From NCBI GenBank assembly GCA_031285625.1, contig JAITVV010000007.1:32001-96000 (forward strand): 64,000 nt of DNA, in the 5' to 3' direction. Both the position numbers and the translations under genes were made by a program. This stretch comes from Prevotella sp. (GTDB lineage: Bacteria > Bacteroidota > Bacteroidia > Bacteroidales > Dysgonomonadaceae). How positions within the stretch are numbered: position 1 is the first letter of the stretch; each line of letters begins with the position of its first letter. The notes under the pieces are model-generated. The model had not been told where the DNA came from, did not search any database, and worked only from the letters and a program-made list of their open reading frames with translations. This document shows positions 25,586 through 46,461 of this stretch, piece by piece.

Positions 25586-25921
25586 CTATAAATTAAAAGT
25601 CTCATCTATAGCCTTTACAATTTCTACATGTATATCAATTTTATCTCCTATAAAACGAGGTACATTATCTATTGTTTTTTTAAATAAAGTAGATGCAAAA
25701 TCCGGGCAATTCTTCAATTCACTTGATGTAATTTTATAAGAACCTCTCAGCCTATTATTATTCCATCTGTAAATTGAAATAAAATACAATTTCATATTTC
25801 TCTCTATAAAGCAAATTAGCTCCACATTACCAACAATTTTGTTATATACACAACTAGTATTCTTTTCTTCTTTTTTAAAATCATGAAGAGCTAATTCGTG
25901 TTCTATATACCGAATGATCAT
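25586..25921 (-). CDS. Hypothetical protein (111 aa)
   Basis: ATG-started ORF in AT-rich DNA, with an ECF-like promoter about 40 nt upstream. No family recognised. Confidence 0.6.
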   Translation of the reverse strand: MIIRYIEHELALHDFKKEEKNTSCVYNKIVGNVELICFIERNMKLYFISIYRWNNNRLRGSYKITSSELKNCPDFASTLFKKTIDNVPRFIGDKIDIHVEIVKAIDETFNL

Positions 25922-25962
25922 ATCTAATATAATTTTATGTAATCAGGGAAATATATTATATT

Positions 25963-25987
25963 AACAAATAAACAACTCCTCTTGTTC
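25963..25987 (-). promoter_or_regulatory. ECF-sigma-like promoter copy 1
   Basis: - strand GAACAAGAGGAGTTGTTTATTTGTT fits RAAC-N17-YGTT. Confidence 0.6.
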
Positions 25988-26557
25988 ATAGCCCTTTCAA
26001 GAGAACATCATATATCATACATATTATCAATAAATTAGATTACACCACAATGAATTAACAAATTTATCACTCGATAAAAAACTGTGAATAATAATAACTA
26101 TTAATTTGTTATAAATAGTTAATTGCATCTTTTTATCAAAGATTATTTACCAAAATTTTATCAAAAAATGTACTGTTGTTAACATTAAGGTATTAAAAAC
26201 CTATACAATTTTATCAAATTTAACATTATTTAATATTTAAAACCGTATAAAAATAGGTCTCTTTCATATTAATTAACATATTTATAGCTAATAAATCATA
26301 CACTATTGCAACCTCCTTATTCGCAAATTATTTCACTTAATATACAACTATACACAAATGATTTATTCTTTGAGAAATCACTGTTCCAGCGCTTATTCTT
26401 TCTCTCTTACTAAATATTTCCTGAAATTAAATATTCACAACATCTATCTTTATTTACGAAGAATAGAGCATATTTATTTTTTTTATAGATGAAAAAATTT
26501 ACATAAAACACTGTTGAGATATAAAAAGTTCAAGTTAAACACAACTAAATATTCCAT

Positions 26558-26582
26558 AAACAATACACTGAAAAATACTGTT
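26558..26582 (+). promoter_or_regulatory. ECF-sigma-like promoter copy 2
   Basis: AAACAATACACTGAAAAATACTGTT, upstream of the glsB-like gene and the pilus operon. Confidence 0.6.
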
Positions 26583-26763
26583 AAAAACTACGAAAATCAA
26601 ATGTGATTAGAATCAAAAAAACGTAAGAAAGATATAAAATCATCTTATCATATTTTTCTATCTGAGTATTTCAGGTATAAACTATTTTGTGCCTAATTTG
26701 ATTAAGAGCATTCACAAACACAAAATAAACAACTGATTTTAAATCATTTAATATAAATAAATT

Positions 26764-27027
26764 ATGGAAGGATTAGGTATTATTTGGTCGATTATAATCG
26801 GCATTCTGGCTGGAGCTATTGCAGGCTGGCTAATGAAAGGGAGCGGTTTCGGATGGATTATGAATCTGGTTGTGGGACTGGTAGGCAGTGTGCTTGGTGG
26901 CTGGATTTACGGTTTACTTGGATTTCACACAGATAGTATATTAGGTGTACTCCTAATGTCGATAGTAGGTGCTGTAGTATTATTAGGTATACTATCGTTG
27001 TTTATGAGAATTAGAAATAGAGATTAA
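26764..27027 (+). CDS. GlsB/YeaQ/YmgE family stress-response membrane protein (transglycosylase-associated)
   Basis: Three Gly-rich TM helices: IIGILAGAIA, VGLVGSVLGG and SIVGAVVLL. Confidence 0.9.
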   Translation: MEGLGIIWSIIIGILAGAIAGWLMKGSGFGWIMNLVVGLVGSVLGGWIYGLLGFHTDSILGVLLMSIVGAVVLLGILSLFMRIRNRD

Positions 27028-27047
27028 ATAACTAAAAAAATTAAATT

Positions 27048-27257
27048 ATGAAAAAAGTAATTATGGGTACGGTTGCCGGTATAGCTACTGGATATTTTCT
27101 TCGCAAAATTCAGGAAAGAGCATATTTTCATGAAATGTGTGATGATATAAGCGGATTAGGGTTTAAGGCAAAAAAGAAGTTCAAAAATGCAATGGACAGA
27201 GGAATGAATGAGGCTGAATATATAAAGGATCAAGTCGAAAGTAAAGCAAACAAATAA
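27048..27257 (+). CDS. Small YtxH-like membrane-anchored protein
   Basis: N-terminal GTVAGIATGY anchor followed by a charged helical tail. Confidence 0.65.
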   Translation: MKKVIMGTVAGIATGYFLRKIQERAYFHEMCDDISGLGFKAKKKFKNAMDRGMNEAEYIKDQVESKANK

Positions 27258-27309: not shown

Positions 27310-28494
27310 ATGAAGACTTCACTTACTATTATTTTCATGGTATTCGTAGGTTTATTAATGACTGCCTGCCAAAGTGAGAATGATGATTTAAACATCGGTA
27401 CTGATACTGGAATAGAAGGTAAAACATCAGTAAAATTTGAATTAGATGCAAGTGCAATTGGTTATGAAGTATCAACTAAAGCAGCACAATTTTCCCCAAC
27501 CTATACGAAAGATGGATTTAGTATTTATGCCTTCAGGCAAGGAGTTGGAGGAACAGATTATGTATATGAAAAAACAATTAGCCTGACTAATCTAAGTTAC
27601 TCTTCTTCAACAAAAAAATTAACGGGTAGCGATTTATTACCTATCGGTACGTACAAATTTTTGCCTGTCTATGGACTAGCTAATCAATCAACTCTGCTGA
27701 CTATACCTACATGGAGCACTCAAACATTAAGTAACGATTTTACAATCAAATATAGTGGAGGCAGAGGCTTAACAGAAATATTTCTGCCTATCACCATAGG
27801 AAACATCGACGCACTAACCTCATATGATATGGGATTAACAAGTACTGCTAACGAAACAGTTACAGCCTCTTTACAAAGGGCAGTATCACGTGTGGATGTT
27901 ATGTTTATCAAAGCTACAAAAGCCGATGATGGTACATATACAGAAACTGCTTATCCTACCGGCAAAGACGTATTTGGTCAAAAAGCCATAAAAACATTGC
28001 AAATGCGTTATAAAGGGCTAAATAATCTGATGAGTTTCTTTGGGACAAACCTCACTACTACTGTTTTCAATGCAAACATAAACCTCGACCTTTCAAAGAA
28101 TATTATTCTTAAAGGAGAGCATCCGACAGAAACAGCTATAGGTAAAGGGTCTTATCTGAGCTATGATAACATTAGTTCTAATGACTTGATATTCGGAGGA
28201 GCACACATATTTGGAAATTATTTATTCCCTAATAGTACTGCAGATAAAACAACTTCCTTAGAAATATATATTGAGCCGGAAGGTGGGATTGGAAGAACAA
28301 TAAATGTAAGTTATGACAATGATCATAAATTGCCAATAGAACGAAACAAAGTAACAATTGTGAAAATCTATGTATTAGACAGTGATCCTGATAATCCAAA
28401 TCCACCGACAGTATTTGATACCACAGTTAATTTTGAGGTAGAAATCGAAACAGTTTGGAATGGTAGTAATGAAGTTACAGGAGAGATAAACTAA
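27310..28494 (+). CDS. Type V pilin lipoprotein (FimB/Mfa2-like fold), probable major subunit
   Basis: Lipobox LMTAC with acidic export signal, STKAA processing-like site, LQRAVSRV, ERNKVT and C-terminal FEVEIETVW strand. Confidence 0.78.
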   Translation: MKTSLTIIFMVFVGLLMTACQSENDDLNIGTDTGIEGKTSVKFELDASAIGYEVSTKAAQFSPTYTKDGFSIYAFRQGVGGTDYVYEKTISLTNLSYSSSTKKLTGSDLLPIGTYKFLPVYGLANQSTLLTIPTWSTQTLSNDFTIKYSGGRGLTEIFLPITIGNIDALTSYDMGLTSTANETVTASLQRAVSRVDVMFIKATKADDGTYTETAYPTGKDVFGQKAIKTLQMRYKGLNNLMSFFGTNLTTTVFNANINLDLSKNIILKGEHPTETAIGKGSYLSYDNISSNDLIFGGAHIFGNYLFPNSTADKTTSLEIYIEPEGGIGRTINVSYDNDHKLPIERNKVTIVKIYVLDSDPDNPNPPTVFDTTVNFEVEIETVWNGSNEVTGEIN

Positions 28495-28558
28495 TATCAC
28501 TTTCCGAAATAGATAAATGTATTAATAAGTTTTTACAAGAGATTAAAACCGAAACAAC

Positions 28559-29518
28559 ATGAAAAAACGCTATTATATAATATGGATGTGGATGTTGATT
28601 GTCTTGCTAACAGCATGTAGCAATAAAGATGAAGATGTGTTTGATCATGGTAATCCTACACTGGATCACAAAAGTGAGGCCATAACTTTTTCCCAGGAAA
28701 TGGGAGGTGTTTCGGTTTTAATTTTCAATGAAAGCAATGATAACTTTAAATATCTGAGAAGTATTGTTTCCGGCTGGTCTACTGATGGTAAAGTCTCGAC
28801 TCGATTAAATTTAGGTAAATATAAGTTTTTGTTCTTAAAGTCAGCCGGAACAAGTACTTCTCTATATCCTGCTTCATTTGATGATAACACATCCTTTGAT
28901 GACATAAAAATCATAGCTAAAACTGATACCCAAAATGAAAATTATGTTCTACCTGTTGACGAAATATGGTTGCCTGAAACGGAGGAGTTAGCCAAAACCA
29001 TTTATACAATAGTAGATGAAACCACTGTTCAGAATAAACTGACCCGTGCAGTAAGCCAAATAATAGTTCATGTAAAACGTGTAGCGAACGAAAGTGGAAA
29101 GATAACAGAACTTCCATTTCCTCCCGGAAAAAACATTACAGATGATATTAAAGAAATAAAACTTGATATAAATGGTGTCGGAGAAGCTGTAAATATCAGA
29201 GGAGGAATAGGATCTACAAAAACAAAAGATATCTTAGATGAAGTAACTGATATTGATGATTACGGATTTGCGACATATAATGGTCCATTTGTTTTTCCTA
29301 AAGAAACAGCCGGACAAAGTACAATAAATATATCAGTTATACCTTCTGAAGACAGTGTATTTCCAGATATGAATACTTCTGTAAACGGCCGGCTCGAAAG
29401 AAATAAGAAGCTGGAAATTACACTCTTGGTAACTGCAACATATCAACTCATAGATATTACTGTGGACACAAATCCTATGAAAGAAATAGCCCAGGGTGAT
29501 TCTGGAATATGGGAATAA
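28559..29518 (+). CDS. Type V pilin lipoprotein (FimB/Mfa2 family)
   Basis: Lipobox LTAC, GKYKFL, LTRAVSQI, GPFVFP and LERNKKLEI motifs. Confidence 0.78.
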   Translation: MKKRYYIIWMWMLIVLLTACSNKDEDVFDHGNPTLDHKSEAITFSQEMGGVSVLIFNESNDNFKYLRSIVSGWSTDGKVSTRLNLGKYKFLFLKSAGTSTSLYPASFDDNTSFDDIKIIAKTDTQNENYVLPVDEIWLPETEELAKTIYTIVDETTVQNKLTRAVSQIIVHVKRVANESGKITELPFPPGKNITDDIKEIKLDINGVGEAVNIRGGIGSTKTKDILDEVTDIDDYGFATYNGPFVFPKETAGQSTINISVIPSEDSVFPDMNTSVNGRLERNKKLEITLLVTATYQLIDITVDTNPMKEIAQGDSGIWE

Positions 29519-29538
29519 TAAAGCTTAAAAGAAAAAGG

Positions 29539-30861
29539 ATGAAAAATAGATTTATAAGATATGCTATCTTCTTCTTTGCAAGCCTGGCCTTGTTTTCATG
29601 CTCTAATAATGAGTACGAAGAAGACTATAATACCAATGTTGATATAGCCGAGGGTATACCGGTTATTACAGCCTTAGCAAGCAAACCATTGCCTGAAAAT
29701 TTGCAATGTACTATGTACATTTTCTGGAAATCGGCAACTGATACAGAAAATGAATATGCCTTAAAAGAAATAAAAATACTGGAAAATACAGCACAGAATA
29801 AGCTTAAATTTATGAATAATGAATTGGAGAACAAAACATATCGTTTTCTATTCGTTGCTACCCCTTCCAGCACTAAAGAAATTGAATTAGTGAAATCGGA
29901 TGAAAATAACCTACAAATTGGGGATAAATGGGAAGATCTGATGATAAGATCATTTGACCCAATAGTATCAGCAGATAACTATCAAGGATTTGTTGATAAA
30001 ACCGGAACAGAAATATTGAACGGAAAGACAATAAATTGTACTCTGAGCAGACTGGTCGGTCAAATAATATTCGATATATATAAAATATTAAAGGAAGGAA
30101 ATACAACTGTCAGCCAGGATGTTTCTTTACCACATTTCACAGTTTTAGACCGTGTGTATAAAATTGAGATAGAGTATAGTGACCTTACAAAAGGTGTTGT
30201 TTACAATAACGATAATGAAATAATACATCAAAGCTTGTGGAACGATTCATATAAACAAACCATAGAACCTAAACTATATGAAAATGAAATTCCATGGTTC
30301 CGGAATTTTAAGGTAAATGCTTCTCAACCTGTTACTAATCTTACATTTTCGGAAGAGAAGAATGGAAGTGCCCACATAAAAGGAATTTATTGTATGCCCT
30401 CTAACGAGAATCTGAAAATAAAAATGACATTCTATTATTATGATACAACTCCACTGTGTGAAAACACAGAACATATACATTCAAAGTACTGCTACACCTA
30501 TCTGGATACATATAACAATACACAGTTTCTACCCTCAATATGTGGTATAGCTGAACATACCCATATGAATAGCTGCTATAAAGACGGCGTATTGATCTGT
30601 ACCAAAGAAGTTCATATACACAGAGTAGGGTGCTACGATATAGATCCGGTATGCGGAATGAATGAATATGTTTACACCAGCGATTGTTTTACAAAGAAAT
30701 TCATTGTACTTAATCTACCGAAGAAGGATGCAACTCCATTAAGTGTTATTCCTAATCACTATACCCTAAATACAGCTAAGATCAGATATGATAGGATTAT
30801 AGATGTTGGCGCTAATTTCTCCTTTGAATTTGATACAGCTTGGAAAAATGATAATAACTAA
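29539..30861 (+). CDS. Type V pilin-like lipoprotein with four Cys/His repeats
   Basis: Lipobox LFSC, TYRFLFVA, LSRLVGQI and C-terminal FEFDTAW. Carries a C-x4-H-x-H-x3-C insertion. Confidence 0.72.
   Translation: MKNRFIRYAIFFFASLALFSCSNNEYEEDYNTNVDIAEGIPVITALASKPLPENLQCTMYIFWKSATDTENEYALKEIKILENTAQNKLKFMNNELENKTYRFLFVATPSSTKEIELVKSDENNLQIGDKWEDLMIRSFDPIVSADNYQGFVDKTGTEILNGKTINCTLSRLVGQIIFDIYKILKEGNTTVSQDVSLPHFTVLDRVYKIEIEYSDLTKGVVYNNDNEIIHQSLWNDSYKQTIEPKLYENEIPWFRNFKVNASQPVTNLTFSEEKNGSAHIKGIYCMPSNENLKIKMTFYYYDTTPLCENTEHIHSKYCYTYLDTYNNTQFLPSICGIAEHTHMNSCYKDGVLICTKEVHIHRVGCYDIDPVCGMNEYVYTSDCFTKKFIVLNLPKKDATPLSVIPNHYTLNTAKIRYDRIIDVGANFSFEFDTAWKNDNN
30457..30687 (+). repeat. Four protein-level C-x4-H-x-H-x3-C-[YF] repeats
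   Basis: CENTEHIHSKYC, CGIAEHTHMNSC, CTKEVHIHRVGC and CGMNEYVYTSDC (H>Y in the last copy). Confidence 0.9.
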
Positions 30862-30876
30862 TAAAACCGCACTATT

Positions 30877-32085
30877 ATGATACGTAAAATAATTTTGCTA
30901 TTGGGCATAGCCATGTGGATAATATCTTGCCAGCAGGATGATCAGGAACTTGATATGAGTGGCGGTAACACAAATAATGGGGATGGTATTCCAGTAAAAA
31001 TATCATTATCAATAGAGGATGGAATAGACAATCAAACCGGGTATATTCCGATGAAAGTAGGTACTGAGGATGAAGTTAAATTAAAGATATCCAATTTATA
31101 CCGGATCATTATTATGAAGAAAATCGGAAATAAAATAATAATAGACTCTTTAGCTACAGGTATTGCTGATAATTCTTTAAGAGAATGGGATGCCGCCAGT
31201 TTCAAAAAAGGAGATAATCTTAGCGACCTTTCATTAGTTCTCACTCCCGGAGAGTATTATTTATCCATTTTTACCGGATTTAATAAGCTAATGTGGAATT
31301 CCCACATTAAAAAAGGAGGAGTTGTAGCTGATGATTCATCCGATGGAACCCATGACTACGCCTGTACATACGGAATCGGAGCAACAAGCTACTCTAATGT
31401 AGGTGTAAAGTACGTTTCGGAAGAAATATTCAGTGGGACAACACATTTTATAGTAAATAAGACCGAGGATCTACATTCCAATCCTGATCCCGTACTAGAG
31501 AATATAAAAGTGACCTTGAAACGCAATGTTACCAAATACAGGATGGTACTGCATGATTACGATGGAGTTGATCCTAACGATGCTTTTGAAAGCAATTTTT
31601 CTGAACCGATAATTAGAGGTAATATGACGGCCCTTAATGGGACTAAATTCGTAGATGGACTTGATATCTGGGGAGATCCATGGTATGATCAGGATACACC
31701 AACAACTGAAATGGAGTATTGTACTGAAACAAAGAGTTCAATGATTACCTTCGGAAATGAAAGATATTACTTCAGTACACATGGAACGAGAGTACACGCT
31801 CCTTACTTCTTCTCAAAAGAAGGGGATGAAGTAGAAGTACGCTTTTCAAATTTAAGAGTCTATTTTGGTTCCAACTCAAGATATTACAGATACAATGAGA
31901 CCATTGATGCAACACTGATGCATAACAATGTAGATGGCATAATATTCACTCCCGGGAGTGAAACCGACGATAATGTCTGGCCTCCTGTAACCAATATGAA
32001 TCTGGAAATGAATGGAGCAAAACCGAAAAACCCATTAGATATATTCAATAGTTATGCAGAATTTAATTTTCTCCAAACCCCTTAA
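30877..32085 (+). CDS. Pilin-like lipoprotein (minor/tip subunit candidate)
   Basis: Lipobox IISC-QQDD, LTPGEYYL and LKRNVTKYR motifs. Operon context. Confidence 0.65.
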   Translation: MIRKIILLLGIAMWIISCQQDDQELDMSGGNTNNGDGIPVKISLSIEDGIDNQTGYIPMKVGTEDEVKLKISNLYRIIIMKKIGNKIIIDSLATGIADNSLREWDAASFKKGDNLSDLSLVLTPGEYYLSIFTGFNKLMWNSHIKKGGVVADDSSDGTHDYACTYGIGATSYSNVGVKYVSEEIFSGTTHFIVNKTEDLHSNPDPVLENIKVTLKRNVTKYRMVLHDYDGVDPNDAFESNFSEPIIRGNMTALNGTKFVDGLDIWGDPWYDQDTPTTEMEYCTETKSSMITFGNERYYFSTHGTRVHAPYFFSKEGDEVEVRFSNLRVYFGSNSRYYRYNETIDATLMHNNVDGIIFTPGSETDDNVWPPVTNMNLEMNGAKPKNPLDIFNSYAEFNFLQTP

Positions 32086-32089
32086 AATT

Positions 32090-32992
32090 ATGGCTAAAAG
32101 TATAAAAATATTTGGAATATTATTATTGCTGGTTTTCTTCTCGGGCTGCGTAAAAGACGGAGAAGATCTTTGTCCTCCGGCAGGAAATGTAAAGATGGAT
32201 TTCTTTGTTGAGAAATTTCGTAATAAATCAGAGAATCCGCTAGATGACAGAGAAGAAGATTTTTTAAATAGAATCAATCATCTGCGCTATTTTATCTATA
32301 AAGAGGGCAATTTATATCAACAAGGCATAATAGATAATTTCACCAAAACTTCTAGTCCTTCATATTCTTTTCGTTTCACAGGTTTAGATTATGGAAACTA
32401 TAATATGGTTGTAGTTGCAAACTGTACGAAAGAAGCACTATCCGGTGACCCTGTTAATGCAGATAATCTATTGTTGACTTTCCCCGGTTGTATGGATACA
32501 GAAGACTTCTTTACTGCAGTATTCCCTTTCAGTATACAATCTGATGAAGTAAAAGAATATGAAGTAGGATTAATGCGTACACATGGCATTATTCGCTATA
32601 CGTTTAAGAATATGCCAGATAATATAACTGACATGGAAGTTGTGATGAAGAATGTAAGCCAGGAAAAATGGGTAACGGGAGATTATCGGACTACTTGCGA
32701 AGCATCCCGGCGATATGCAGTAATACCCTTGGTAAAAAAAACGGAAGCAGATGATTATATTATAGGCACCTTCCCTACCCTCACCAATGAAAAATCTGCT
32801 TATTACCTTAATATGTACAAAGAAGGGGAAACAACTCCATATATAAGCCAGATGATAACAGATGACCTTACAGTTAAAAGGAATCAACTTTTGGATATAG
32901 CTGTAACATTCAATGATGGATATCTGAGTTTCGAGATAGATATGGATAGCGATTGGGGCGGTTCTTCTTCCGGCGAAGTAGGTATAGAATAA
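32090..32992 (+). CDS. Mfa2/FimB-like anchor pilin
   Basis: Lipobox FSGC-VKDGEDLC, INHLRYFIY, GNYNMVVVAN, VKRNQL and IDMDSDW motifs. Confidence 0.8.
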   Translation: MAKSIKIFGILLLLVFFSGCVKDGEDLCPPAGNVKMDFFVEKFRNKSENPLDDREEDFLNRINHLRYFIYKEGNLYQQGIIDNFTKTSSPSYSFRFTGLDYGNYNMVVVANCTKEALSGDPVNADNLLLTFPGCMDTEDFFTAVFPFSIQSDEVKEYEVGLMRTHGIIRYTFKNMPDNITDMEVVMKNVSQEKWVTGDYRTTCEASRRYAVIPLVKKTEADDYIIGTFPTLTNEKSAYYLNMYKEGETTPYISQMITDDLTVKRNQLLDIAVTFNDGYLSFEIDMDSDWGGSSSGEVGIE

Positions 32993-33017
32993 TAAAGCAA
33001 CATAAAGAAAATATACA

Positions 33018-33584
33018 ATGAAAAAAGGAATTTTAATATTGATTTCATTAATATGTTCGGTGTCGATATTTCCACAGTATGTTGGAATTAAGAACAACCT
33101 TGTATATGATGCAACATTAACCCCAAATCTGGGAATCGAATTCGGATTAGGAAAAAAGTCGACTCTTGATATGAATGTAGGTTATAACCCATTCACATTC
33201 AGCGACCATAAAAAGTTCAAACATTGGTTAGTACAACCTGAATTTCGTTTGTGGTTTTGTGAAAAATTCAATGGAACATTTTTCGGAATCCATGCCCATG
33301 GAGGAGAATTCAGTGTATCTGGTAATCATTTGCCTTTTGGTATATTTCCCAACTTAAAAGGCTATCGATACGAAGGTTATTTCTATGGAGGAGGTATCAG
33401 TATTGGCTACCAGTGGATACTTAGCAAACGTTGGAATCTAGAAACATCTATAGGTGCAGGTTATGCCAGGCTAGAATATGATAAATACAATTGTCCTGAT
33501 TGCGGACCTAAGCTAGATTCGGGACACTACAATTATTGGGGGCCCACTAAAGCTACTATCTCGTTTATTTATATCATCCACTAA
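33018..33584 (+). CDS. DUF3575 outer-membrane beta-barrel protein
   Basis: IKNNLVYDATLTPNLGIE, HWLVQPEFRLW and YWGPTKA motifs. Typical companion of pilus operons. Confidence 0.88.
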   Translation: MKKGILILISLICSVSIFPQYVGIKNNLVYDATLTPNLGIEFGLGKKSTLDMNVGYNPFTFSDHKKFKHWLVQPEFRLWFCEKFNGTFFGIHAHGGEFSVSGNHLPFGIFPNLKGYRYEGYFYGGGISIGYQWILSKRWNLETSIGAGYARLEYDKYNCPDCGPKLDSGHYNYWGPTKATISFIYIIH

Positions 33585-33595
33585 ACATCGTAAAC

Positions 33596-38066: not shown

Positions 38067-38072
38067 TAGATA

Positions 38073-38129: not shown

Positions 38130-38154
38130 CAGGACAAACAATAAAATTACCATT

Positions 38155-39135: not shown

Positions 39136-39155
39136 ATATTGTATTAAATAAATAA

Positions 39156-39653
39156 ATGATTATGAAAAAAATGCTTTTTATTATTACCTGTATTCTTATA
39201 TCGGGTATAGCAATGCAGTCATGTAAACAAAGTGACGAAAATCTGAAAAAGGATGTGGATAAAGCAATTCAGGGACGTTACAACAGTACCATTAGTACTT
39301 CTGTTAAAGATGGAGTAGTAACACTTATAGGCACAGTAGAATCACAACAAGAAAAGACATCAGTTGAAAGTGAAGTGAAAGCTGTAAAACATGTAAAAAC
39401 GGTAGTAAATAATATCTCGGTTCGTGAAAGTAATATTACCTCACAGCAACCTGTGATAAATCCTGATAATACTATTAAATCCTCTATTGAATCAAGACTG
39501 GCAACAGAAGGGTTTAAAGATGTTAAGGTCGATGTTAGCAATGGAGAAATTATCCTGAGCGGAAACCTTAAGAGAAGTGACCTTACTAAAGTAATGCAGA
39601 TAGCTAACGAGTCGAATCCTAAAAAAGTTACTAACAATCTAAATCTGAAATAA
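39156..39653 (+). CDS. Double BON-domain lipoprotein
   Basis: Lipobox MQSC, VKDGVVTLIG...VKTVVNNI and VSNGEIILSG...VTNNL. Confidence 0.88.
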   Translation: MIMKKMLFIITCILISGIAMQSCKQSDENLKKDVDKAIQGRYNSTISTSVKDGVVTLIGTVESQQEKTSVESEVKAVKHVKTVVNNISVRESNITSQQPVINPDNTIKSSIESRLATEGFKDVKVDVSNGEIILSGNLKRSDLTKVMQIANESNPKKVTNNLNLK

Positions 39654-40021
39654 TGGACTTAAAAGATAAATACAGCAAAATAATTGATTTTTCCTCAAAA
39701 CCAAATGTAGATAATCTTTCTATTAGCGAGAATGATGGAGTATTGTATATTTCAGGTACAGCAAGTGAGTCTGTAAAAGAAAAACTATGGGATCTGTATA
39801 ACCAGATAGATCCGGATATGCGATCCGGAGATATGGTACTGGATATAAAATCGACTGGAGGAAGCGAACAGATTTATGAAATTAAACCAGGAGATAGTCT
39901 AAGTAAGATAGCTCAACACTACCCCGGAGTGACATGGCAAAAATTATATGAGGCAAATAAAGATGTAATAAAAGATCCGAATGTAATACATCCCGGCCAA
40001 AAGATTAAAATTCCTAAATAA
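39653..40021 (+). CDS. BON-like + LysM protein (Kbp/YgaU-like architecture)
   Basis: DGVLYISG followed by LysM YEIKPGDSLSKIA...LYEAN...IHPGQKIKIP. Confidence 0.88.
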   Translation: MDLKDKYSKIIDFSSKPNVDNLSISENDGVLYISGTASESVKEKLWDLYNQIDPDMRSGDMVLDIKSTGGSEQIYEIKPGDSLSKIAQHYPGVTWQKLYEANKDVIKDPNVIHPGQKIKIPK

Positions 40022-40078
40022 TCACTTATCCCATCTTGGAGAATATTGATTTTTAGTACGAATTTTAAATAAACGATT

Positions 40079-40303
40079 ATGTCAAAAGATGATATAGGAA
40101 CTGAATCCGGAACTATTTGGTTATTACTTTCAGACAAAGGGAAATTATCTATAAGAGAAATCGGTGAATTTACAAATTGTAAGGACTCACTTATCTTTTT
40201 AGCATTAGGATGGTTATTAAGAGAAGATAAGATTCGTTTTTTTGATGAGAATGGTATTTTGTATGCTGAACTAAATAGGTGTGGATCTGAATTATATTAC
40301 TAA
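40079..40303 (+). CDS. Winged helix-turn-helix protein (DUF2582-like)
   Basis: IGTESGTIWLLL...ALGWLLREDKI signature. Confidence 0.85.
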   Translation: MSKDDIGTESGTIWLLLSDKGKLSIREIGEFTNCKDSLIFLALGWLLREDKIRFFDENGILYAELNRCGSELYY

Positions 40304-40748: not shown

Positions 40749-40751
40749 TTT

Positions 40752-41230: not shown

Positions 41231-41425
41231 TTATTCCCTGTCACTTTTTCCTGATAACTTACCAATATAAAAAATCGCAAATCCTATCAGGGAAATTACT
41301 GCTATAGCACCTACAACATAAAGCACAATAGTAGATACTACTTTTACTCCTATAACAAGGAGGGTAATAAAAAGCAAAATAGATATTACACCTATCGCTA
41401 TTAAAATATTCTTCAATATATTCAT
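41231..41425 (-). CDS. Small two-TM membrane protein
   Basis: 64-aa hydrophobic ORF following the OmpA gene on the same strand. Confidence 0.65.
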   Translation of the reverse strand: MNILKNILIAIGVISILLFITLLVIGVKVVSTIVLYVVGAIAVISLIGFAIFYIGKLSGKSDRE

Positions 41426-41450
41426 ATTATTTCTTATTTATATTAATACA

Positions 41451-42650
41451 TTATTTTTTCACAAAACGTAATGCTATATCTCTGTCTTCAGCTCTTTTTG
41501 CTTCAGATTCGGAAGCACTATGTTTTGCAAATTCATCTCCATATCCCTGAACTTTAACAATCTGGGAACCTACTCCCCTCTTCTCAAGCAATGATTCTAT
41601 TGTTTTTGCCCGTTCCTGCGAAACTTTCAAGTTAGCTGCTTCAGTTCCTTTCTTATCAGCAAAAGCTGCTATTTTAATTCTAGCGTCCTTATAATTCTTC
41701 AAAATAGAAGCAATATTATCCAATTGAGTTTCAGATTCCGGCTTTAATTCGGTAGAGCTTCCAAATCCAAATGCAATATTGTCAAATTCAAACCATTTCT
41801 CTTTGAGCTCACTGTCTTTTGCTTTTTTATATTCATCAGATTGCAGGAACTTTACCATAGCATCTTCTACTCCTTTTTCATATACATTTATTTTTGTACT
41901 ATCAGGTAATCTCAATACATTAGACGCTCTGTTCGCTGAAGATGAAGATTGTTGAGAAGTAGGAGTTTGAGCTATAGTGTCTGTGGTAGCCACCTGTTCA
42001 ACAGGTCTTTCGGTCTCATTACTCCGACAAGATCTCCAACCCCAAAGAAGTAAGAGTAATAAGACGACAAGTACCACCCATATAACCCAATTATTCTTTT
42101 TATCTTCTTTTTTTGTATCTGTATTTAATACAGATGAGAGCCCGAATGATTTAATCAAATCAGAGGGAATCATTCCTATTAAGTCATTCTTCTCACTCCT
42201 TATTTCGTTCAGTAACATTGACATAGTCTTATTCTCCTTCACTAACTTATTACCTAGAAATCCGCAAAACAAAGGGGCAATCATAGCTATAAGTTTGTTT
42301 GCTGCTACATTTGATATTCCATTATTTTTTGCAATTGGATCTGTAAAGTCGACAGCTTTGTCACCTAAAAGGTGTTGCAAAAAATCATCACCGATTTTAA
42401 GCTGTTCGAGAGTTGGTTGCTCAGCCCATAATTCTCTGAATTCAAGAAGTAAATTTCGTCTACCGGCATCTTCAAGTATATTCATTATCTGTGGAGTACC
42501 TCCGTTCTTTAGCATAACACCTAACAAACTAGCAATAATAGAAGATGAAGTACCCGATATTCTTTCTTCACTTTCATCTAGTACTGTTGCTGCCTTTGAT
42601 ATCATTTCGTGACTTACAAGGCTTCTTAATGAGTTGTAATAATTATTCAT
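41451..42650 (-). CDS. DUF937-like + TM + OmpA C-terminal domain protein
   Basis: Helical N-domain, central TM segment, and FDNIAF...ANLKVSQERA...QGYG...DRDI OmpA-like domain. Confidence 0.85.
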   Translation of the reverse strand: MNNYYNSLRSLVSHEMISKAATVLDESEERISGTSSSIIASLLGVMLKNGGTPQIMNILEDAGRRNLLLEFRELWAEQPTLEQLKIGDDFLQHLLGDKAVDFTDPIAKNNGISNVAANKLIAMIAPLFCGFLGNKLVKENKTMSMLLNEIRSEKNDLIGMIPSDLIKSFGLSSVLNTDTKKEDKKNNWVIWVVLVVLLLLLLWGWRSCRSNETERPVEQVATTDTIAQTPTSQQSSSSANRASNVLRLPDSTKINVYEKGVEDAMVKFLQSDEYKKAKDSELKEKWFEFDNIAFGFGSSTELKPESETQLDNIASILKNYKDARIKIAAFADKKGTEAANLKVSQERAKTIESLLEKRGVGSQIVKVQGYGDEFAKHSASESEAKRAEDRDIALRFVKK

Positions 42651-42721
42651 AAGTTATTTATCTTAAGTTATCTGATATGTGAAGAATGTAGGTTGTGAAT
42701 ATCAGTACATAGAATAAAGGA

Positions 42722-43621
42722 CTAACCTAGATGATTTCCGCCTGTAACTCCGAATACTTCTGCTGTTATATAGCTGGATTCTTGTGATGCCAGAAAAACA
42801 TATATTCCAGCCAGTTCTGCTGGTTGTCCGGCTCTTTTAAGAGGCGTTTCTTGTCCAAATTTTGGTAATTTCTCTTGTTGCTGTCCACCACTTATTTGTA
42901 ATGGAGTCCATATAGGACCCGGCGCAACACAATTTACCCTTATACCTTTTGATGCAATTTGTTTTGCCAGTCCACGGGTCAAATTCAAGATAGCACTCTT
43001 TGTTGCTGCATAATCTAACAGGTCAGGACTAGGTTGATATGCCTGAATTGATGAACATGTGATAATTGAAGCTCCGGGAGGCAATAATGGTAAAGCTGCC
43101 TGTACTGTCCAAAATAATGAAAACACATTAATCTTAAATGTATTGGTTAATTGTTCGGTCGTTATTTCCTCTATATCCTTTTTAGATACTTGTTTACCTG
43201 CTATTAAAGCTAAGATGTCTAATCTTCCCAACTTCTCATGGGCTTCTTTAATCATTTGCTTATTAAACTCCTCGTCGCTTAAATCTCCTGGAATAAGTAT
43301 TACTTTTTTTCCTTCTTTTTCCAATAATTTAACGAGCGACTCCGCATCTTTCTGCTCTGATTCCAGATAGTTAATTGCAATATCAGCACCTTCGCGCGCA
43401 TAGGCGATTGCAGTAGCCCTTCCTATACCCGAATCACCTCCGGTTATAAGGGCTTTTCTTCCTTTTAACCTGCCATTGCCGACATAGCTTTCTTCACCAC
43501 AATCAGGAACGGGATCCATTTCACATTGAATACCCGGATATTCCTGAAGTTGTTTTGGAAAACCGTCCTGTCTGTATTGAGTCAGAGGATTTTGCATTTC
43601 GTTTTGTGATTTAATTTCCAT
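42722..43621 (-). CDS. SDR oxidoreductase (YghA/YhdF general-stress type)
   Basis: [38 protein letters not shown] and RAGQPAELA motifs. Confidence 0.92.
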
Positions 43622-43651
43622 ATTTTTTGTCTTTAATAATTAATAATCAAT

Positions 43652-44863
43652 TTATTTCCCTCTTTCAAATCCAAAAACTTTTTCTCTTTCATCTTTTACA
43701 CCACTCAGCTTATTTTTTATAAGTTGTGCAGCAATCATACTAAATGTGATACCGTTTCCCCCGTATCCTAATGCATAAAACATTCTTTTTTTGCCTGGCC
43801 AATTTCCTATATATGGTAAGCCATCTTTTGTCGAACTAAATGTCCCGCACCATGCCATATCTGTTTTAAAAGGTATATGAGGAAATAGCTTTTTTATCTT
43901 TCGCTCTAATATTGAAACCTTTTTTCTTAGTAATTCATCCCTTTTTACAGGATTTCGAAATTCTTCATCTTCCCCACCTACTATGATCCGGTTTTTGTTA
44001 TCTGTACGAATATATAAGTACGGCTCTTGGGTTTCCCATATGAGGCTCCGTTTGTGCCATATATACTTTTCATCGACAGGCTCAGATATAATTGCATATG
44101 TAGATGTCAGATTCATTACCTGTTTAGGCAGGAATTTTCCTGCTTCAAACCCTGCAGCAATGATTACATTCTTACACTTAATCTTATACCCGTCTATAGT
44201 AAGCAGTTCATATCCTTTTGGCGTTTCTGAGTATTTATCAACTTCAGTATGTGTAAAAACACTCAGATCATTTTTAGCCATATGATAATCTATGAGATGG
44301 GTAGCAGCTTTATAAGCATCTATCTGAGCCGATACATTATTTTCCAGACTACCCAATGCTTTAATTCCATATTTATTAAGTAATTCCTTTTTATCCAGAA
44401 AGTCCACAGGCAGTTTATGCTTCTTTCTTATCTCGTATTCTTTTTTTATAAGTTTTTCTCCTTTTTTGTTACTGGCATAATATACACTGGGTACTTTTTC
44501 AAAATCGGGATCGAAGTTAATACTCTTGAAAACATTTTCAATATCTGTTATTGACTGTAAACAAGCTTTATAAGCCATTACAGCTAAATTCTCATCTATT
44601 ATTTTTACCATCTCACACAATGGTGTATCAATCTCATATTGCAACAAAGCTGTACTGGCAGTAGAACTACCAGCTGTAATGCTTCGTTTATCAATTAATG
44701 TACATTTCATTCCTGCCCGACATAATTCATGAGCAACTAAAGCTCCTGTAATACCTCCTCCAATAATTACTACATCTGCAGCAATATTGGATTTTAGCGG
44801 ATTAAAATAATTATACAATTGGTTTTTAGCCATCCAATAGGGAAGCCCTGAATACAAATCCAT
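43652..44863 (-). CDS. FAD-dependent oxidoreductase (DAO family)
   Basis: IIGGGITG, STASTALLQYEID, DGLPYIG and GYGGNGITF motifs. Confidence 0.9.
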   Translation of the reverse strand: MDLYSGLPYWMAKNQLYNYFNPLKSNIAADVVIIGGGITGALVAHELCRAGMKCTLIDKRSITAGSSTASTALLQYEIDTPLCEMVKIIDENLAVMAYKACLQSITDIENVFKSINFDPDFEKVPSVYYASNKKGEKLIKKEYEIRKKHKLPVDFLDKKELLNKYGIKALGSLENNVSAQIDAYKAATHLIDYHMAKNDLSVFTHTEVDKYSETPKGYELLTIDGYKIKCKNVIIAAGFEAGKFLPKQVMNLTSTYAIISEPVDEKYIWHKRSLIWETQEPYLYIRTDNKNRIIVGGEDEEFRNPVKRDELLRKKVSILERKIKKLFPHIPFKTDMAWCGTFSSTKDGLPYIGNWPGKKRMFYALGYGGNGITFSMIAAQLIKNKLSGVKDEREKVFGFERGK

Positions 44864-44873
44864 AGAGTTACTT

Positions 44874-46316
44874 TTATTTTTTTACCCAAACTGCTACTTT
44901 ACCACCATGTACCTTAAAGAGAGCTTTACCATCATCTCCTATAATAACTTCATCATCAATACTGCCTGTAATTTCGTGCCATGTCTCTCCTTTGTGATGT
45001 TCTCCAACATACATCACTTTATCACCATCTTCCCCGTTTGAAAGAAGCAAAGCTAAACCTGAGTCTTCACGTATATCATCACCTTCACGGGTGAGACCTA
45101 CAGTATTGGGATGATCAAAATAATAATTTTGCTTTCCATAGGCATATCTAGCACGTGCATCAAGAAGAATGTCTAAAATCTTCCGATGCGGAGATTCCTG
45201 ATCCCCCATTTTGTAATAATCTCCATAAAAAATACACGGATATCCTTTTTCCATAAGTAAGATAATACCATAGGCCAAAGGCTTAAACCACGATTTTATC
45301 TGTGACTCCAACGAACTACCATGCTGAGAATCATGATTATCAACAAACGTAACGGCTTTATCAGGGAGCTGAGATACTAATGTTCCATCAGGTAGATTGG
45401 TTAAGTCAAAATCGCGTCCCTGCTGTGAAGCCTGATAGAATTTATAATGTAAGGGTACATCAAACAGATTGAGCTTATGATCAGTGATATCCAAAAATTC
45501 TTGTAATGCATCAAAATCTTCTTTCCAATATTCACCAACAGCAAAAAAGTTATCTCCTCGTTCTGAACGCACTTCATCCATAAATTTCTTAAGAAAATGA
45601 GCATCCATATGTTTGATTGCGTCTAATCTCATTCCATCCAGATTAAGTTCTGTAGAGACCCATCTTCCCCATTTTCCCAATTCTCCAACAACTTCCGGAT
45701 GGTCTAAATCCAGGTCATTGAACATCAGATAGTCGTAGTTGTTATTTTCACCATCTACAGCCTGACTCCAATTCTTGCCTTCACCCAAAATACGATAAAT
45801 AGCAGTCTTTTCATTAGCTGCATTATAGTCAGTACCTGAGAAGTGATACCAGTGCCATTTAAAATCCGAATATTTATCTTCCCTTCCCGGGAAATTATAC
45901 CCTGTATATGCTTCTATTTCATAAGGATCACTTACAGTTTTGGTCCTGTCATCAAAATCTACTTCCTGAGCCATAAATTTTTCAGTGTATTCGCCTCCTG
46001 CTTTATGATTCATTACAGCATCGAGATAAACTGATATCTGATATTTATGCAATTCAGTAATAGCATCAATCAGTTCCTGTTTAGTACCATATTTAGTTCT
46101 TACAGTACCTTTTTGATCAAATTCACCCAAATCGAAAAGATCATAAGTTGCATAACCCTCATCTTCTTGCTCATCAGCTTTATACGCAGGAGGAATCCAT
46201 ACTGAAGTTACACCGATCTCACTCAGATGTTTTGCATCATTTTTCAATTGCTTCCAGAACTTACCATCATTAGGTAAATTCCATTCGAAGTATTGCATCA
46301 TTACACCATTTTTCAT
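44874..46316 (-). CDS. amyA: Cytoplasmic alpha-amylase (GH13, AmyA type)
   Basis: MQYFEW, WIPPAYK, DAVMNHK, RLDAIKH, AVGEYW and FVDNHD motifs. No signal peptide. Start at MKNGVMM. Confidence 0.92.
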   Translation of the reverse strand: MKNGVMMQYFEWNLPNDGKFWKQLKNDAKHLSEIGVTSVWIPPAYKADEQEDEGYATYDLFDLGEFDQKGTVRTKYGTKQELIDAITELHKYQISVYLDAVMNHKAGGEYTEKFMAQEVDFDDRTKTVSDPYEIEAYTGYNFPGREDKYSDFKWHWYHFSGTDYNAANEKTAIYRILGEGKNWSQAVDGENNNYDYLMFNDLDLDHPEVVGELGKWGRWVSTELNLDGMRLDAIKHMDAHFLKKFMDEVRSERGDNFFAVGEYWKEDFDALQEFLDITDHKLNLFDVPLHYKFYQASQQGRDFDLTNLPDGTLVSQLPDKAVTFVDNHDSQHGSSLESQIKSWFKPLAYGIILLMEKGYPCIFYGDYYKMGDQESPHRKILDILLDARARYAYGKQNYYFDHPNTVGLTREGDDIREDSGLALLLSNGEDGDKVMYVGEHHKGETWHEITGSIDDEVIIGDDGKALFKVHGGKVAVWVKK

Positions 46317-46436
46317 ACTAATACTCTTTTTATATTTTGATCTAATTCTGTCGTATAAAGGATAATAAATTATTAGGTAGTTTTTCTTTGTCTTATGGTA
46401 TGAAGTGTAAATCAAGCTCTGATCATACTAATACAA

Positions 46437-46461
46437 AACGCATATAAAATCTATTTTGTTT
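46437..46461 (-). promoter_or_regulatory. ECF-sigma-like promoter copy 4
   Basis: - strand AAACAAAATAGATTTTATATGCGTT, upstream of the amyA operon. Confidence 0.6.

What the first reader, a model, noticed from the sequence alone, without database searches (positions are those of the whole stretch)
25586..46461. Island-wide ECF-like promoter links a type V pilus to a general-stress gene set
Seen in sequence: four intergenic sites match RAACAA-N15-YGTT with identical spacing, each oriented into a transcription unit of this AT-rich ~21-kb block. They are 25987-25963(-) before an orphan ORF, 26558-26582(+) before glsB and the pilus operon, 36175-36199(+) before OMP-META-LEA-esterase-BON-LysM-wHTH, and 46461-46437(-) before amyA-DAO-SDR-OmpA. 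A weaker TAAC-N17-TGTA lies at 40402. The outermost copies sit at the two ends of the island. The flanking operons use the Bacteroidota housekeeping TAnnTTTG element instead. Established: AAC...CGT is the classic ECF-sigma -35/-10 architecture, and YeaQ/YmgE, BON, YgaU, HslJ, YghA and AmyA are osmotic/stationary-phase (largely RpoS/SigB-type) genes in other phyla. Inference: this is a physically clustered general-stress regulon, controlled by an alternative sigma factor encoded outside the window, that also switches on a pilus. The motif was derived post hoc and I did not scan the whole window exhaustively.
Basis: partly seen in the sequence, partly recalled or inferred. Interest (0 to 1): 0.8.

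Follow-up and report, generated by a model that had tools for sequence, protein, structure and literature searches.

The report
Conserved alternative-sigma promoter on stress genes
The four look-alike sites are real copies of a stress and stationary-phase promoter already described in gut Bacteroides, here heading a conserved cluster of stress genes in a Dysgonomonas relative, while its control of the neighbouring pilus genes is unproven.

Summary
RAACAA-N15-YGTT occurs exactly four times in the 64-kb window, at the stated coordinates and only in intergenic DNA.

Window statistics alone cannot settle a motif derived post hoc. An independent test can. In 57 related loci from other Bacteroidales the same pattern is about 15-fold enriched in intergenic DNA, and only at spacers of 15 and 14. 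It recurs upstream of orthologues of the same genes (OMP, glsB, amyA) and of other stress-type genes.

The element points toward genes. It rarely co-occurs with the housekeeping TAnnTTTG box.

It fits what the text says of PM2, the non-canonical promoter of Bacteroides thetaiotaomicron. PM2 is near-palindromic, has boxes at -30 and -10 with TGTT at -10, marks stationary-phase and oxidative-stress genes (PMC7366714), and was recently tied to the ECF sigmas SigH-1 and SigW-1 (PMC12596196).

A sigma that looks like the SigH-1 orthologue lies beside the stress cluster in three related loci.

Pilus control is unproven. The pilus operon is a lineage-specific insertion behind glsB.

The 40402 site is unsupported.

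Verdict: a new member of a known kind.

The parts
26558..26582 (+). Site 2: AAACAA-N15-TGTT, 182 nt upstream of glsB. Predicted start of transcription is the A at 26593 (inferred).
   Evidence: One search gives an exact match. Counterparts lie upstream of glsB homologues in L001 (2 sites), L005, L008 and L029 and in L002. No exact TAnnTTTG faces glsB.
36175..36199 (+). Site 3: AAACAA-N15-TGTT, 266 nt upstream of the OMP gene that leads the OMP-META-YtxH-esterase-BON-LysM-wHTH unit. Predicted start is the A at 36210 (inferred).
   Evidence: The same element is found at 266-269 nt in L003 and L004, 214-220 nt in L008 and L021, and 61-88 nt in Bacteroides and Phocaeicola loci. It is absent in L001 and L002. 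This is the only window site in a co-directional intergenic region, and it points the right way.
46437..46461 (-). Site 4: AAACAA-N15-CGTT, upstream of amyA-DAO-SDR-OmpA. It is the least palindromic of the four sites.
   Evidence: It lies 22 nt from the TTG of the longest ORF. The alpha-amylase model NF006969 aligns only from residue 34 and the Bacteroides orthologues are 482 aa, so the true start is probably about 100 nt further on. A motif lies about 200 nt upstream of amyA in L011 and L027, 2 of 7 amyA homologues.
25963..25987 (-). Site 1: GAACAA-N15-TGTT, a full palindrome (AACAA-N14-TTGTT), 42 nt upstream of a 111-aa ORF of no known family.
   Evidence: The ORF has no Pfam or NCBIfam family and no tblastn match better than E = 0.13 in the 57 loci. 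Two exact TAnnTTTG boxes also face this ORF, ending at 26059 and 26215. Its function is the least certain of the four.
25654..25677 (-). Exact N14 variant AAACAA-N14-CGTT inside the 111-aa ORF, 137 nt upstream of the response-regulator gene 24843-25517. Of uncertain meaning.
   Evidence: Spacer 14 is the second enriched spacing in related loci. Not followed up.
26764..27257 (+). glsB (GlsB/YeaQ/YmgE family, 87 aa) and a 69-aa small ORF.
   Evidence: Pfam Transgly_assoc 5.1e-10, above the cut-off. The arrangement glsB, small ORF, fimbrillin is shared with L001 and L002.
27310..35044 (+). Seven-gene type V pilus-like operon: putative fimbrillin, Mfa2-like, DUF5031, a 402-aa protein, Mfa2-like, DUF3575 barrel, DUF3868-OmpA-TPR.
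   Evidence: Pfam Mfa2 twice above the cut-off, plus DUF5031, DUF3575 and DUF3868. The first gene has no Pfam family and no PDB relative by sequence. The protein atlas puts it nearest to fimbrial-subunit clusters at score 0.97, which is a lead only. The operon is present in the window, L001 and L002 and absent between glsB and OMP in L005, L006 and L008.
36465..40303 (+). Stress-type unit: OMP beta-barrel, META/HslJ-like, YtxH-like, Abhydrolase_3 esterase, BON, LysM, DUF2582 wHTH. It ends at a hairpin plus T-run near 40362-40395.
   Evidence: for the families. The hairpin GAGGTATAGA/TCTATACCTC followed by TTTTAT is read.
41231..46415 (-). Unit amyA, DAO-family oxidoreductase, YghA-like SDR, DUF937-OmpA and a 64-aa membrane ORF. 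It ends at the two-way terminator 41184-41212.
   Evidence: alpha-amylase NF006969 scores 748.8 bits, above its cut-off; the SDR scores 506.9 bits on PRK07985, just under its cut-off of 538. Terminator. In L008 glsB-DAO-SDR-OmpA forms one minus-strand string next to the motif.
23408..23431 (+). Fifth AACAA-N16-GTT match, outside the block. It overlaps the canonical TAATTTTG box of the RND pump gene and is probably chance.
   Evidence: It fails the full pattern because it has T where R is required.

Best explanation
The four sites are promoters of the PM2 type, the non-canonical promoter class first found by TSS mapping in Bacteroides thetaiotaomicron.

How it most likely works. RNA polymerase carrying an alternative ECF-type sigma factor contacts RAACAA around -32 and YGTT around -12. 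The two boxes are separated by 15 (sometimes 14) non-conserved bases. Transcription starts at a conserved A 11 nt after GTT. The housekeeping sigma, which needs TAnnTTTG, is not used.

The sigma is encoded outside the window. The best candidate is the orthologue of B. thetaiotaomicron SigH-1 (BT1197). In that species SigH-1 depends on (p)ppGpp and starvation and is repressed by Cur.

The units headed by sites 2, 3 and 4 form a conserved, physically clustered stress and stationary-phase gene set of Bacteroidales: glsB; OMP-META-YtxH-esterase-BON-LysM-wHTH; amyA-DAO-SDR-OmpA.

The type V pilus operon was inserted between glsB and the OMP unit in this lineage. It may be read through from the glsB promoter.

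Shown: presence of the sites, enrichment, spacing specificity, cross-genus conservation, directionality, and depletion of the housekeeping box.

Inferred: identity with PM2, the start sites, the sigma, co-induction, and pilus read-through.
For: 1. Independent enrichment with sharp spacer specificity. N15 gives 42 hits against 2.83, and N14 gives 18 against 2.90, in 132.5 kb of intergenic DNA from 57 loci. This holds without the anchor's own upstream region: 22 against 2.43 and 16 against 2.35. Coding DNA (872 kb) holds only 17 N15 hits.

2. Conservation upstream of orthologues in different contexts. The motif faces the OMP homologue within 500 nt in 21 of 57 loci; two more, L035 and L048, are seen. 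It precedes glsB in L001, L005, L008 and L029 and in L002, and amyA in L011 and L027. It also sits before a BrkB/YihY-family gene in 9 Bacteroides loci, an unnamed 344-aa gene in 4, and OmpA-like, YtxH-like, YceI and Pirin genes.

3. Only the two boxes are conserved among 44 unique sites. An A at +11 after GTT occurs in 34 of 44 sites, including all four window sites, and is not mirrored upstream.

4. Directionality. In co-directional intergenic regions, non-palindromic sites are 14 sense and 2 antisense.

5. Housekeeping box. Genes with the motif upstream carry an exact TAnnTTTG in 7 of 47 cases, against 207 of 612 without it (Fisher p = 0.009). None faces glsB, OMP or amyA in the window.

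6. Literature (passages read).
- PMC7366714: PM2 is 'near-palindromic', with elements centred at -10 and -30, upstream of 75 coding genes enriched for oxidative stress, and linked to stationary phase.
- PMC12596196, Fig. [quoted passage not shown] The SigH-1 and SigW-1 regulon promoters resemble it. The SigH-1 regulon is rich in unknown, envelope and acid-resistance genes.

7. Candidate sigma. An ECF sigma lies directly upstream of glsB-OMP in L006. It is 52% identical to sigmas in L011 and L027. Those two are followed by a gene like pyruvate carboxylase subunit B. PMC12596196 names that same pairing for BT1197 and BT1196.
Against: - There are no transcript data for this organism. The start sites and co-induction are unverified.
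Identity with PM2 rests on three text statements. The -30 half is inferred from 'near-palindromic'.
- Conservation is partial. 34 of 57 loci lack a strict site before the OMP homologue, including the two closest relatives L001 and L002. Only about 5 of 24 glsB homologues and 2 of 7 amyA homologues have one.
- The 57 loci share ancestry, so hit counts overstate the number of independent events.
- The core is palindromic. In Bacteroides the OMP site extends to a 9-bp inverted repeat, which would suit a dimeric regulator.
- PMC11697453 still calls the PM2 factor 'an elusive transcriptional factor'.
- The SigH-1-like sigma genes show no such motif upstream. L006 has a canonical TAAATTTG, and L011 has no motif in its 270 upstream bases.
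- L006, where that sigma sits beside the operon, has no strict site at all.
- Within-window statistics are not significant family-wise.
Confidence: 0.7

Rival explanations
1. The element is the operator of a dimeric transcription factor that binds the inverted repeat AACA-N16-TGTT. That factor activates or represses these genes, and transcription comes from some other promoter.
For: - The core AAC-N18-GTT is self-complementary, and site 1 is a perfect AACAA-N14-TTGTT.
- Several sites in divergent regions are fully palindromic: L001, L005, L007, L008 and L029.
- Bacteroides OMP sites extend to AACAAATGT-N6-ACATTTGTT.
- PMC11697453 (passage read) speaks of 'an elusive transcriptional factor' recognising PM2.
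Against: - The left box is 6 nt and the right box only 4 nt. The flanks are not mirrored: the A at +11 occurs in 34 of 44 sites on one side only.
- Non-palindromic sites in co-directional regions point toward the gene 14 times and away 2 times.
- The housekeeping box an operator would need nearby is depleted: 7 of 47 against 207 of 612.
- PM2 was discovered at a fixed distance from mapped start sites, which is the mark of a promoter (PMC7366714).
Confidence: 0.17
2. The promoter element is real, but the pilus operon is not under it. The pilus genes have their own control, and the link to stress genes is only physical neighbourhood created by an insertion.
For: - glsB abuts the OMP operon with no pilus genes in L005, L006 and L008.
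- A conserved box (GAGGTGGGGA, a few bases, then GTTTAATATTAATAA) sits just before the fimbrillin start in the window, L001 and L002. It could be a separate control site.
- The motif is 728 nt from the fimbrillin start.
Against: - The gaps are only 20 and 52 nt.
- No exact TAnnTTTG and no motif copy lies between glsB and the fimbrillin gene.
- The scan flagged only one weak terminator-like hairpin, inside the small ORF at 27076-27091.
- The region folds no better than shuffled sequence, z = +1.41.
- The order motif, glsB, small ORF, pilus is kept in all three genomes that have the operon.
Confidence: 0.5
3. The four matches are chance products of AT-rich intergenic DNA, picked out post hoc.
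For: - A family-wise scan of comparable motifs in the window's intergenic DNA finds equally extreme motifs in a sizeable share of shuffles.
- One-mismatch variants are at chance level.
Against: The pattern, fixed in advance from the window, is about 15-fold enriched in independent loci and only at spacers 15 and 14. It also recurs upstream of orthologous genes in other genera.
Confidence: 0.03

Closest known systems
PM2, the non-canonical promoter motif of Bacteroides thetaiotaomicron (Ryan et al. 2020, PMC7366714; passages and section 8 read)
   Same: - It is a two-box, near-palindromic element at about -30 and -10.
- TGTT sits at -10 (stated in PMC12596196).
- It is found where the TAnnTTTG box is not.
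- It is associated with stationary-phase and stress genes and with long leaders or small RNAs.
   Different: - This copy is in a Dysgonomonas-like genome, with no start-site data.
- I could not see the logo, so exact spacing and the -30 box are not compared letter by letter.
- Here the sites head a contiguous gene cluster, whereas the published set is scattered genes.
SigH-1 (BT1197) and SigW-1 regulons of B. thetaiotaomicron, ECF114 group (PMC12596196; passages and section 28 read). P. gingivalis SigH belongs to the same group (PMC7826278, passage read).
   Same: - An ECF sigma is proposed to read PM2-like -30/-10 boxes.
- The regulon is rich in unknown, envelope and stress genes, and is linked to starvation and (p)ppGpp.
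- A sigma with the same neighbouring gene (like pyruvate carboxylase subunit B) lies within 10 kb of the stress cluster in L011 and L027. Its 52% relative abuts the cluster in L006.
   Different: - Orthology to BT1197 is inferred from synteny only.
- The regulon lists are in supplements I could not open.
- The sigma is not in the window.
- No motif was found upstream of the sigma genes.
SigR/SigH-type ECF promoters of Actinobacteria (GGAAT-N18-GTT; recalled from memory, not from any call)
   Same: - The geometry is the same: a -35 box ending in AAC/AAT, about 17-18 bases, then (Y)GTT.
- NCBIfam places the L011 and L006 sigmas near the actinobacterial SigH model, but below its cut-off (88.8 and 80.0 bits against 251.55).
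   Different: - The phylum is different.
- The -35 box reads RAACAA rather than GGAAT.
- The sigmas do not qualify as family members.
RpoS (Proteobacteria) and SigB (Firmicutes) general stress regulons
   Same: Gene families overlap: YeaQ/YmgE (GlsB), OsmY-like BON, YgaU-like LysM, HslJ-like META, YghA-like SDR, cytoplasmic alpha-amylase, YtxH.
   Different: - The sigma class differs: ECF rather than group 2 or 3.
- Here the genes are clustered rather than dispersed.
- Most NCBIfam matches are below the equivalog cut-offs, so these are family-level relatives, not orthologues.
Cur (BT4338) box wwwTATGTTnTAnAACATAwww (PMC6989115, passage read)
   Same: It uses the same TGTT and AACA words. Cur represses SigH-1 and part of its gene set (PMC12596196).
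   Different: - The half-sites are in the opposite order and 4 nt apart, rather than AACA first and 16 nt apart.
- Cur-like boxes are not enriched in the window: 76 against 66.8.

Membership tests
PM2 non-canonical Bacteroides promoter | Two near-palindromic boxes, with TGTT at about -10 and the partner box at about -30 | tested here: met
   The RAACAA and YGTT boxes are the only conserved positions in 44 unique sites, and the core is self-complementary. Caveat: the published logo is a figure I could not see. The comparison rests on text in PMC7366714 and PMC12596196.
PM2 non-canonical Bacteroides promoter | Fixed position relative to mapped transcription start sites | not testable with these tools
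   There are no transcript data for this organism. The only indirect sign is the A at +11 after GTT in 34 of 44 sites.
PM2 non-canonical Bacteroides promoter | Used in place of the TAnnTTTG housekeeping box | tested here: met
   7 of 47 genes with the motif also have an exact box, against 207 of 612 without it, p = 0.009. None faces glsB, OMP or amyA.
PM2 non-canonical Bacteroides promoter | Downstream genes are of the stationary-phase or oxidative-stress type | tested here: inconclusive
   The gene families are stress-type by homology. No expression data exist, and the published PM2 gene list could not be opened.
ECF sigma-dependent promoter | -35 box with AAC and -10 box with CGT/TGT, 16-18 bases apart | tested here: met
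   17 bases separate AAC from YGT in all four window sites. Enrichment is restricted to spacers N15 and N14.
ECF sigma-dependent promoter | Expression depends on a cognate ECF sigma | not testable with these tools
   The candidate is named by synteny only.
ECF sigma-dependent promoter | The sigma gene is preceded by its own promoter motif (autoregulation, common but not universal) | tested here: inconclusive
   No motif is present before the SigH-1-like genes of L006 and L011. A different ECF sigma in L022 has a palindromic copy 48 nt upstream.
Dimeric-regulator operator | Symmetric half-sites and no preferred orientation | tested here: not met
   The boxes are unequal (6 and 4 nt), the flanks are asymmetric, and orientation is 14 sense against 2 antisense.
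Type V (FimA/Mfa1) pilus operon | Fimbrillin and Mfa2-type anchor or accessory subunits in one operon | tested here: met
   Pfam Mfa2 scores 29.5 and 28.4 bits, above the cut-off of 21.2, and DUF5031, DUF3575 and DUF3868 are present. The putative major subunit has no Pfam or PDB match and only a protein-atlas lead at 0.97.
Horizontally acquired genomic island | Integrase, tRNA target, flanking repeats, or presence/absence between relatives | tested here: not met
   There is no tRNA and no integrase family among the 59 ORFs. Only weak AT-rich inverted repeats are found. Only the pilus module with ROK is variable between relatives. The stress genes are a conserved chromosomal cluster.

The most novel reading that the evidence does not exclude
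PM2 is the promoter of a general stress regulon shared across Bacteroidales and read by the SigH-1-type ECF sigma. Its ancestral core is the compact divergent cluster glsB(-DAO-SDR-OmpA) / OMP-META-YtxH(-amyA-esterase-BON-LysM). In one Dysgonomonas lineage a type V pilus operon was captured directly behind the PM2-driven glsB, so surface pili are made as part of the starvation and stationary-phase response.
Probability: 0.3. Interest if true: 0.6.

Novelty: new member of a known kind. Interest (0 to 1): 0.4.

Why it matters
Bacteroidota have no RpoS or SigB, and how they run a general stress response is still being worked out. The factor that reads PM2 was called 'elusive' in January 2025 (PMC11697453) and was assigned only tentatively to SigH-1 and SigW-1 in November 2025 (PMC12596196).

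This locus and its relatives add three things:
- The element is conserved beyond Bacteroides.
- It marks a recognisable, clustered set of envelope and osmotic-stress-type genes.
- A SigH-1-like sigma gene sits next to that cluster in some genomes.

These points give a simple comparative handle for defining the regulon and its sigma. The possible coupling of a pilus to this response would link adhesion to starvation, but it is unproven.

Tried and rejected
- Rfam scan of the whole window at gathering threshold: 0 matches. The long leaders are not a known RNA family.
- tRNA scan: none.
- Sigma-70-type promoter scan: at chance level, 93 against 95. This is expected for this phylum.
- Consensus folding of the glsB leader (5 sequences) and the OMP leader (5 sequences): 0 predicted pairs each.
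- Search for an invertible-promoter structure upstream of the pilus genes: only weak AT-rich inverted repeats, 73-93% complementary.
- Cur-box scan of the window: not enriched, 76 against 66.8.
- One-mismatch motif searches for further weak sites: at chance level.
- PDB sequence searches for three pilus-operon proteins: no hits.
- The EcfO paper (PMC3536166) is not held. The statement that the EcfO motif differs from PM2 is taken from PMC7366714 only.
- Literature searches for a described Bacteroidetes general stress regulon with BON-type genes, for the motif spelled out in text, and for SigH promoter consensus in P. gingivalis found nothing beyond the papers cited.
- Not checked: the rest of this genome, which is not available; the metagenome and viral contig collections, which are closed; and paper supplements, which are closed.

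Full report
**1. The observation**

All four are intergenic. Whole-window shuffles expect 0.84, and 1 of 100 reached 4. Shuffles of intergenic DNA alone expect 0.07, and 0 of 2000 reached 4.

The motif was chosen after looking, so I scored every 5-mer / gap / 3-mer motif in the window's intergenic DNA. AACAA-N16-GTT came second, with p = 1.6e-6. The best motif in shuffled sets had a median p of 6.6e-6, and 19 of 100 shuffles gave a best p of 2.6e-7 or lower. The window alone is therefore not conclusive.

The core AAC-N18-GTT is its own reverse complement. Site 1 is a perfect AACAA-N14-TTGTT, sites 2 and 3 are AACA-N16-TGTT, and site 4 shares only AAC/GTT. Three sites lie in divergent intergenic regions, so only site 3 carries information about orientation.

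A fifth AACAA-N16-GTT at 23408-23431 overlaps the canonical TAATTTTG box of an RND pump gene and is probably chance.

The weak site at 40402 is present in the sequence. It is not recovered with one mismatch allowed, and one-mismatch hits are at chance level: 26 against 24.64, and 29 against 24.75 for N14.

**2. Gene content**

- glsB
- two Mfa2-like proteins, DUF5031, DUF3575 and DUF3868-OmpA-TPR (the pilus module)
- a ROK kinase-like protein
- OMP beta-barrel, META/HslJ-like, YtxH-like, esterase, BON, LysM and a DUF2582 wHTH
- DUF6582
- DUF937-OmpA, a YghA-like SDR, a DAO oxidoreductase and an alpha-amylase

None of the 59 ORFs scanned has a sigma-factor domain.

Exact TAnnTTTG boxes lie close upstream of flanking genes (2086, 7685, 23414). 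None faces glsB, OMP or amyA.

**3. Independent test in related genomes**

The OMP protein has a graded series of relatives. I aligned it with 20 of the 120 listed and used the alignment to fetch 57 loci with 10-kb flanks. The loci include:
- Dysgonomonas: L001-L004 and L006-L008 (65-93% identity), plus more distant Dysgonomonas loci such as L021, L043 and L050-L055
- L005, a record titled Prevotella sp. 10(H), at 68%
- Bacteroides and Phocaeicola, at about 57%

None is identical to the window.

In their intergenic DNA (132,543 bases, window excluded) a spacer scan from N9 to N21 gives the following:
- N15: 42 hits against 2.83 +/- 1.77 (maximum 7 in 40 shuffles)
- N14: 18 hits against 2.90
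- All other spacers: 0-14 hits. N11 = 14 and N18 = 11 are unexplained.
- Coding DNA (872,250 bases): 17 N15 hits

Without the intergenic region next to the anchor gene, the counts remain 22 against 2.43 (N15) and 16 against 2.35 (N14). The loci are related to each other, so the hits are not all independent events.

**4. Where the sites lie**

Sites facing a gene within 500 nt:
- **OMP homologue:** 21 of 57 loci. The distance is 61-88 nt in Bacteroides and Phocaeicola, 266-269 nt in L003 and L004 (as in the window), and 214-220 nt in L008 and L021. L035 and L048 add two more.
- **Misses:** 34 of 57 loci. These include L001 and L002, the closest relatives, where the intergenic region is shorter and the site is gone. 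They also include loci where OMP follows another gene closely.
- **glsB:** L001 (two sites), L005, L008 and L029, plus L002. That is about 5 of 24 glsB homologues.
- **amyA:** L011 and L027, 2 of 7 homologues.

Other conserved cases:
- a BrkB/YihY-family gene in 9 Bacteroides loci, at 18-22 nt
- an unnamed 344-aa gene in 4 loci
- OmpA-like, YtxH-like, YceI and Pirin genes

**5. Promoter or operator?**

Four results favour a directional promoter.
- Among 44 unique N15 sites only RAACAA and YGTT are conserved.
- An A 11 nt after GTT is present in 34 of 44 sites, including all four window sites, and has no mirror image upstream.
- In co-directional intergenic regions, non-palindromic sites point at the gene 14 times and away 2 times.
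- Upstream regions with the motif carry an exact TAnnTTTG in 7 of 47 cases, against 207 of 612 without it (p = 0.009).

The palindromic core, and the 9-bp inverted repeat in Bacteroides OMP sites, keep an operator reading alive.

**6. Comparison with the literature**

PMC7366714 (passages and section 8 read) reports a second promoter motif in B. thetaiotaomicron, PM2. It is 'near-palindromic', with elements centred at -10 and -30. It lies upstream of 75 coding genes enriched for oxidative stress, is tied to stationary phase, and drives the GibS small RNA.

PMC12596196 (passages and section 28 read) makes three relevant statements:
- A 'TGTT' motif at about -10 matches that non-canonical promoter.
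- SigH-1 (BT1197) and SigW-1 regulon promoters resemble it.
- SigH-1 depends on (p)ppGpp, is repressed by Cur, and controls unknown, envelope and acid-resistance genes. BT1196, a pyruvate carboxylase subunit B, also falls when SigH-1 is depleted.

PMC11697453 (passages read) still calls the PM2 factor elusive.

With the conserved A as +1, RAACAA centres at -32 and YGTT at -12.5. This matches the published description. I could not see the logo or the supplementary gene lists.

**7. A candidate sigma**

Pfam on 85 representative locus proteins of 150-215 aa found three ECF sigmas.
- **L006:** the sigma sits directly upstream of glsB-OMP. It is 52% identical to sigmas in L011 and L027.
- **L011 and L027:** each sigma is followed by a gene like pyruvate carboxylase subunit B. 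This is the BT1197/BT1196 arrangement.
- **L022:** a different sigma has a palindromic motif copy 48 nt upstream.

The SigH-1-like genes themselves show no motif upstream. L006 has no strict site anywhere.

**8. The cluster and the pilus**

In L008, glsB-DAO-SDR-OmpA and OMP-META-YtxH diverge from one intergenic region that holds two sites. In L005 the OMP unit also carries amyA, esterase, BON and LysM. The stress genes are thus a conserved chromosomal cluster.

The pilus operon lies between glsB and the OMP unit only in the window, L001 and L002. ROK follows it there; in L005 a ROK homologue lies upstream of glsB on the other strand. There is no tRNA and no integrase family in the window.

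Read-through from site 2 into the pilus genes is possible for these reasons:
- The gaps are 20 and 52 nt.
- Neither promoter type occurs between glsB and the fimbrillin gene.
- Only one weak terminator-like hairpin is flagged, inside the small ORF at 27076-27091.
- The region folds no better than shuffled sequence, z = +1.41.

A conserved box just before the fimbrillin start could be a separate control site. I put co-transcription at about even odds.

**9. Verdict**

However, the element is most likely the known PM2, the pilus coupling is unproven, and site 1 and the 40402 site are weak. This is a new member of a known kind, of moderate interest.

Noticed in passing
window 3297-6438: An RND pump gene is split into two ORFs. 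The first (865 aa) covers AcrB model positions 4-842 of 1021, and the second (166 aa) covers positions 871-1020. This is a frameshift, a stop, or a sequencing error in one of four RND efflux modules in the window.
   Followed up: no
window 50008-50298: A 96-aa ORF matches only positions 48-115 of the 152-position FMN_red model. It is probably a gene fragment.
   Followed up: no
L009, L010, L014-L018 (about 9912-9936 in most): In Bacteroides and Phocaeicola the spacer of the OMP promoter holds a box like ATGTA-N4-AACAT. It matches the published Cur (BT4338) consensus ATGTT-N4-AACAT (PMC6989115) at 9 of 10 half-site positions in L010, L014, L017 and L018. This would fit Cur repression of part of the SigH-1 gene set. 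The window's sites have no such box, and Cur-like boxes are not enriched in the window.
   Followed up: partly
window 27262-27300; L001 about 955-1000; L002 about 1015-1045: A conserved box (GAGGTGGGGA, a few bases, then GTTTAATATTAATAA) lies just upstream of the first pilus gene in all three genomes that carry the operon. Its function is unknown.
   Followed up: no
window 36245-36400 and L001, L003, L004 leaders: The long OMP leader holds conserved blocks, including two short inverted repeats (CTGCATA/TATGTAG and TTGTAAG/CTTACAA). They are kept even in L001, which lacks the promoter site. RNAalifold predicted no consensus structure.
   Followed up: partly
window 40362-40395: A perfect 10-bp hairpin (GAGGTATAGA / TCTATACCTC, 4-nt loop) is followed by TTTTAT, right after the wHTH gene. 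It is a likely terminator that the consensus scan did not list.
   Followed up: partly
57 related loci, intergenic DNA: Spacers N11 (14 hits) and N18 (11 hits) of the same two boxes also exceed the shuffles (about 3 expected, maxima 11 and 6). This is unexplained. It may reflect repeated orthologous sequence or overlapping AACAA words.
   Followed up: no
L022 17416-18048: A second, unrelated ECF sigma gene of Bacteroides faecichinchillae has a palindromic motif copy 48 nt upstream. It is followed by a 430-aa protein with an OMP beta-barrel domain. This is a possible self-regulated sigma using the same box type.
   Followed up: partly
window 52437-60411: A CobN-like chelatase, a TonB-dependent receptor and HmuY lie together in one minus-strand string, with a calycin-like protein. 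MotA/ExbB and DUF2149 genes lie downstream after a 273-nt gap. This is a haem-uptake (hmu-type) cluster unrelated to the finding.
   Followed up: no
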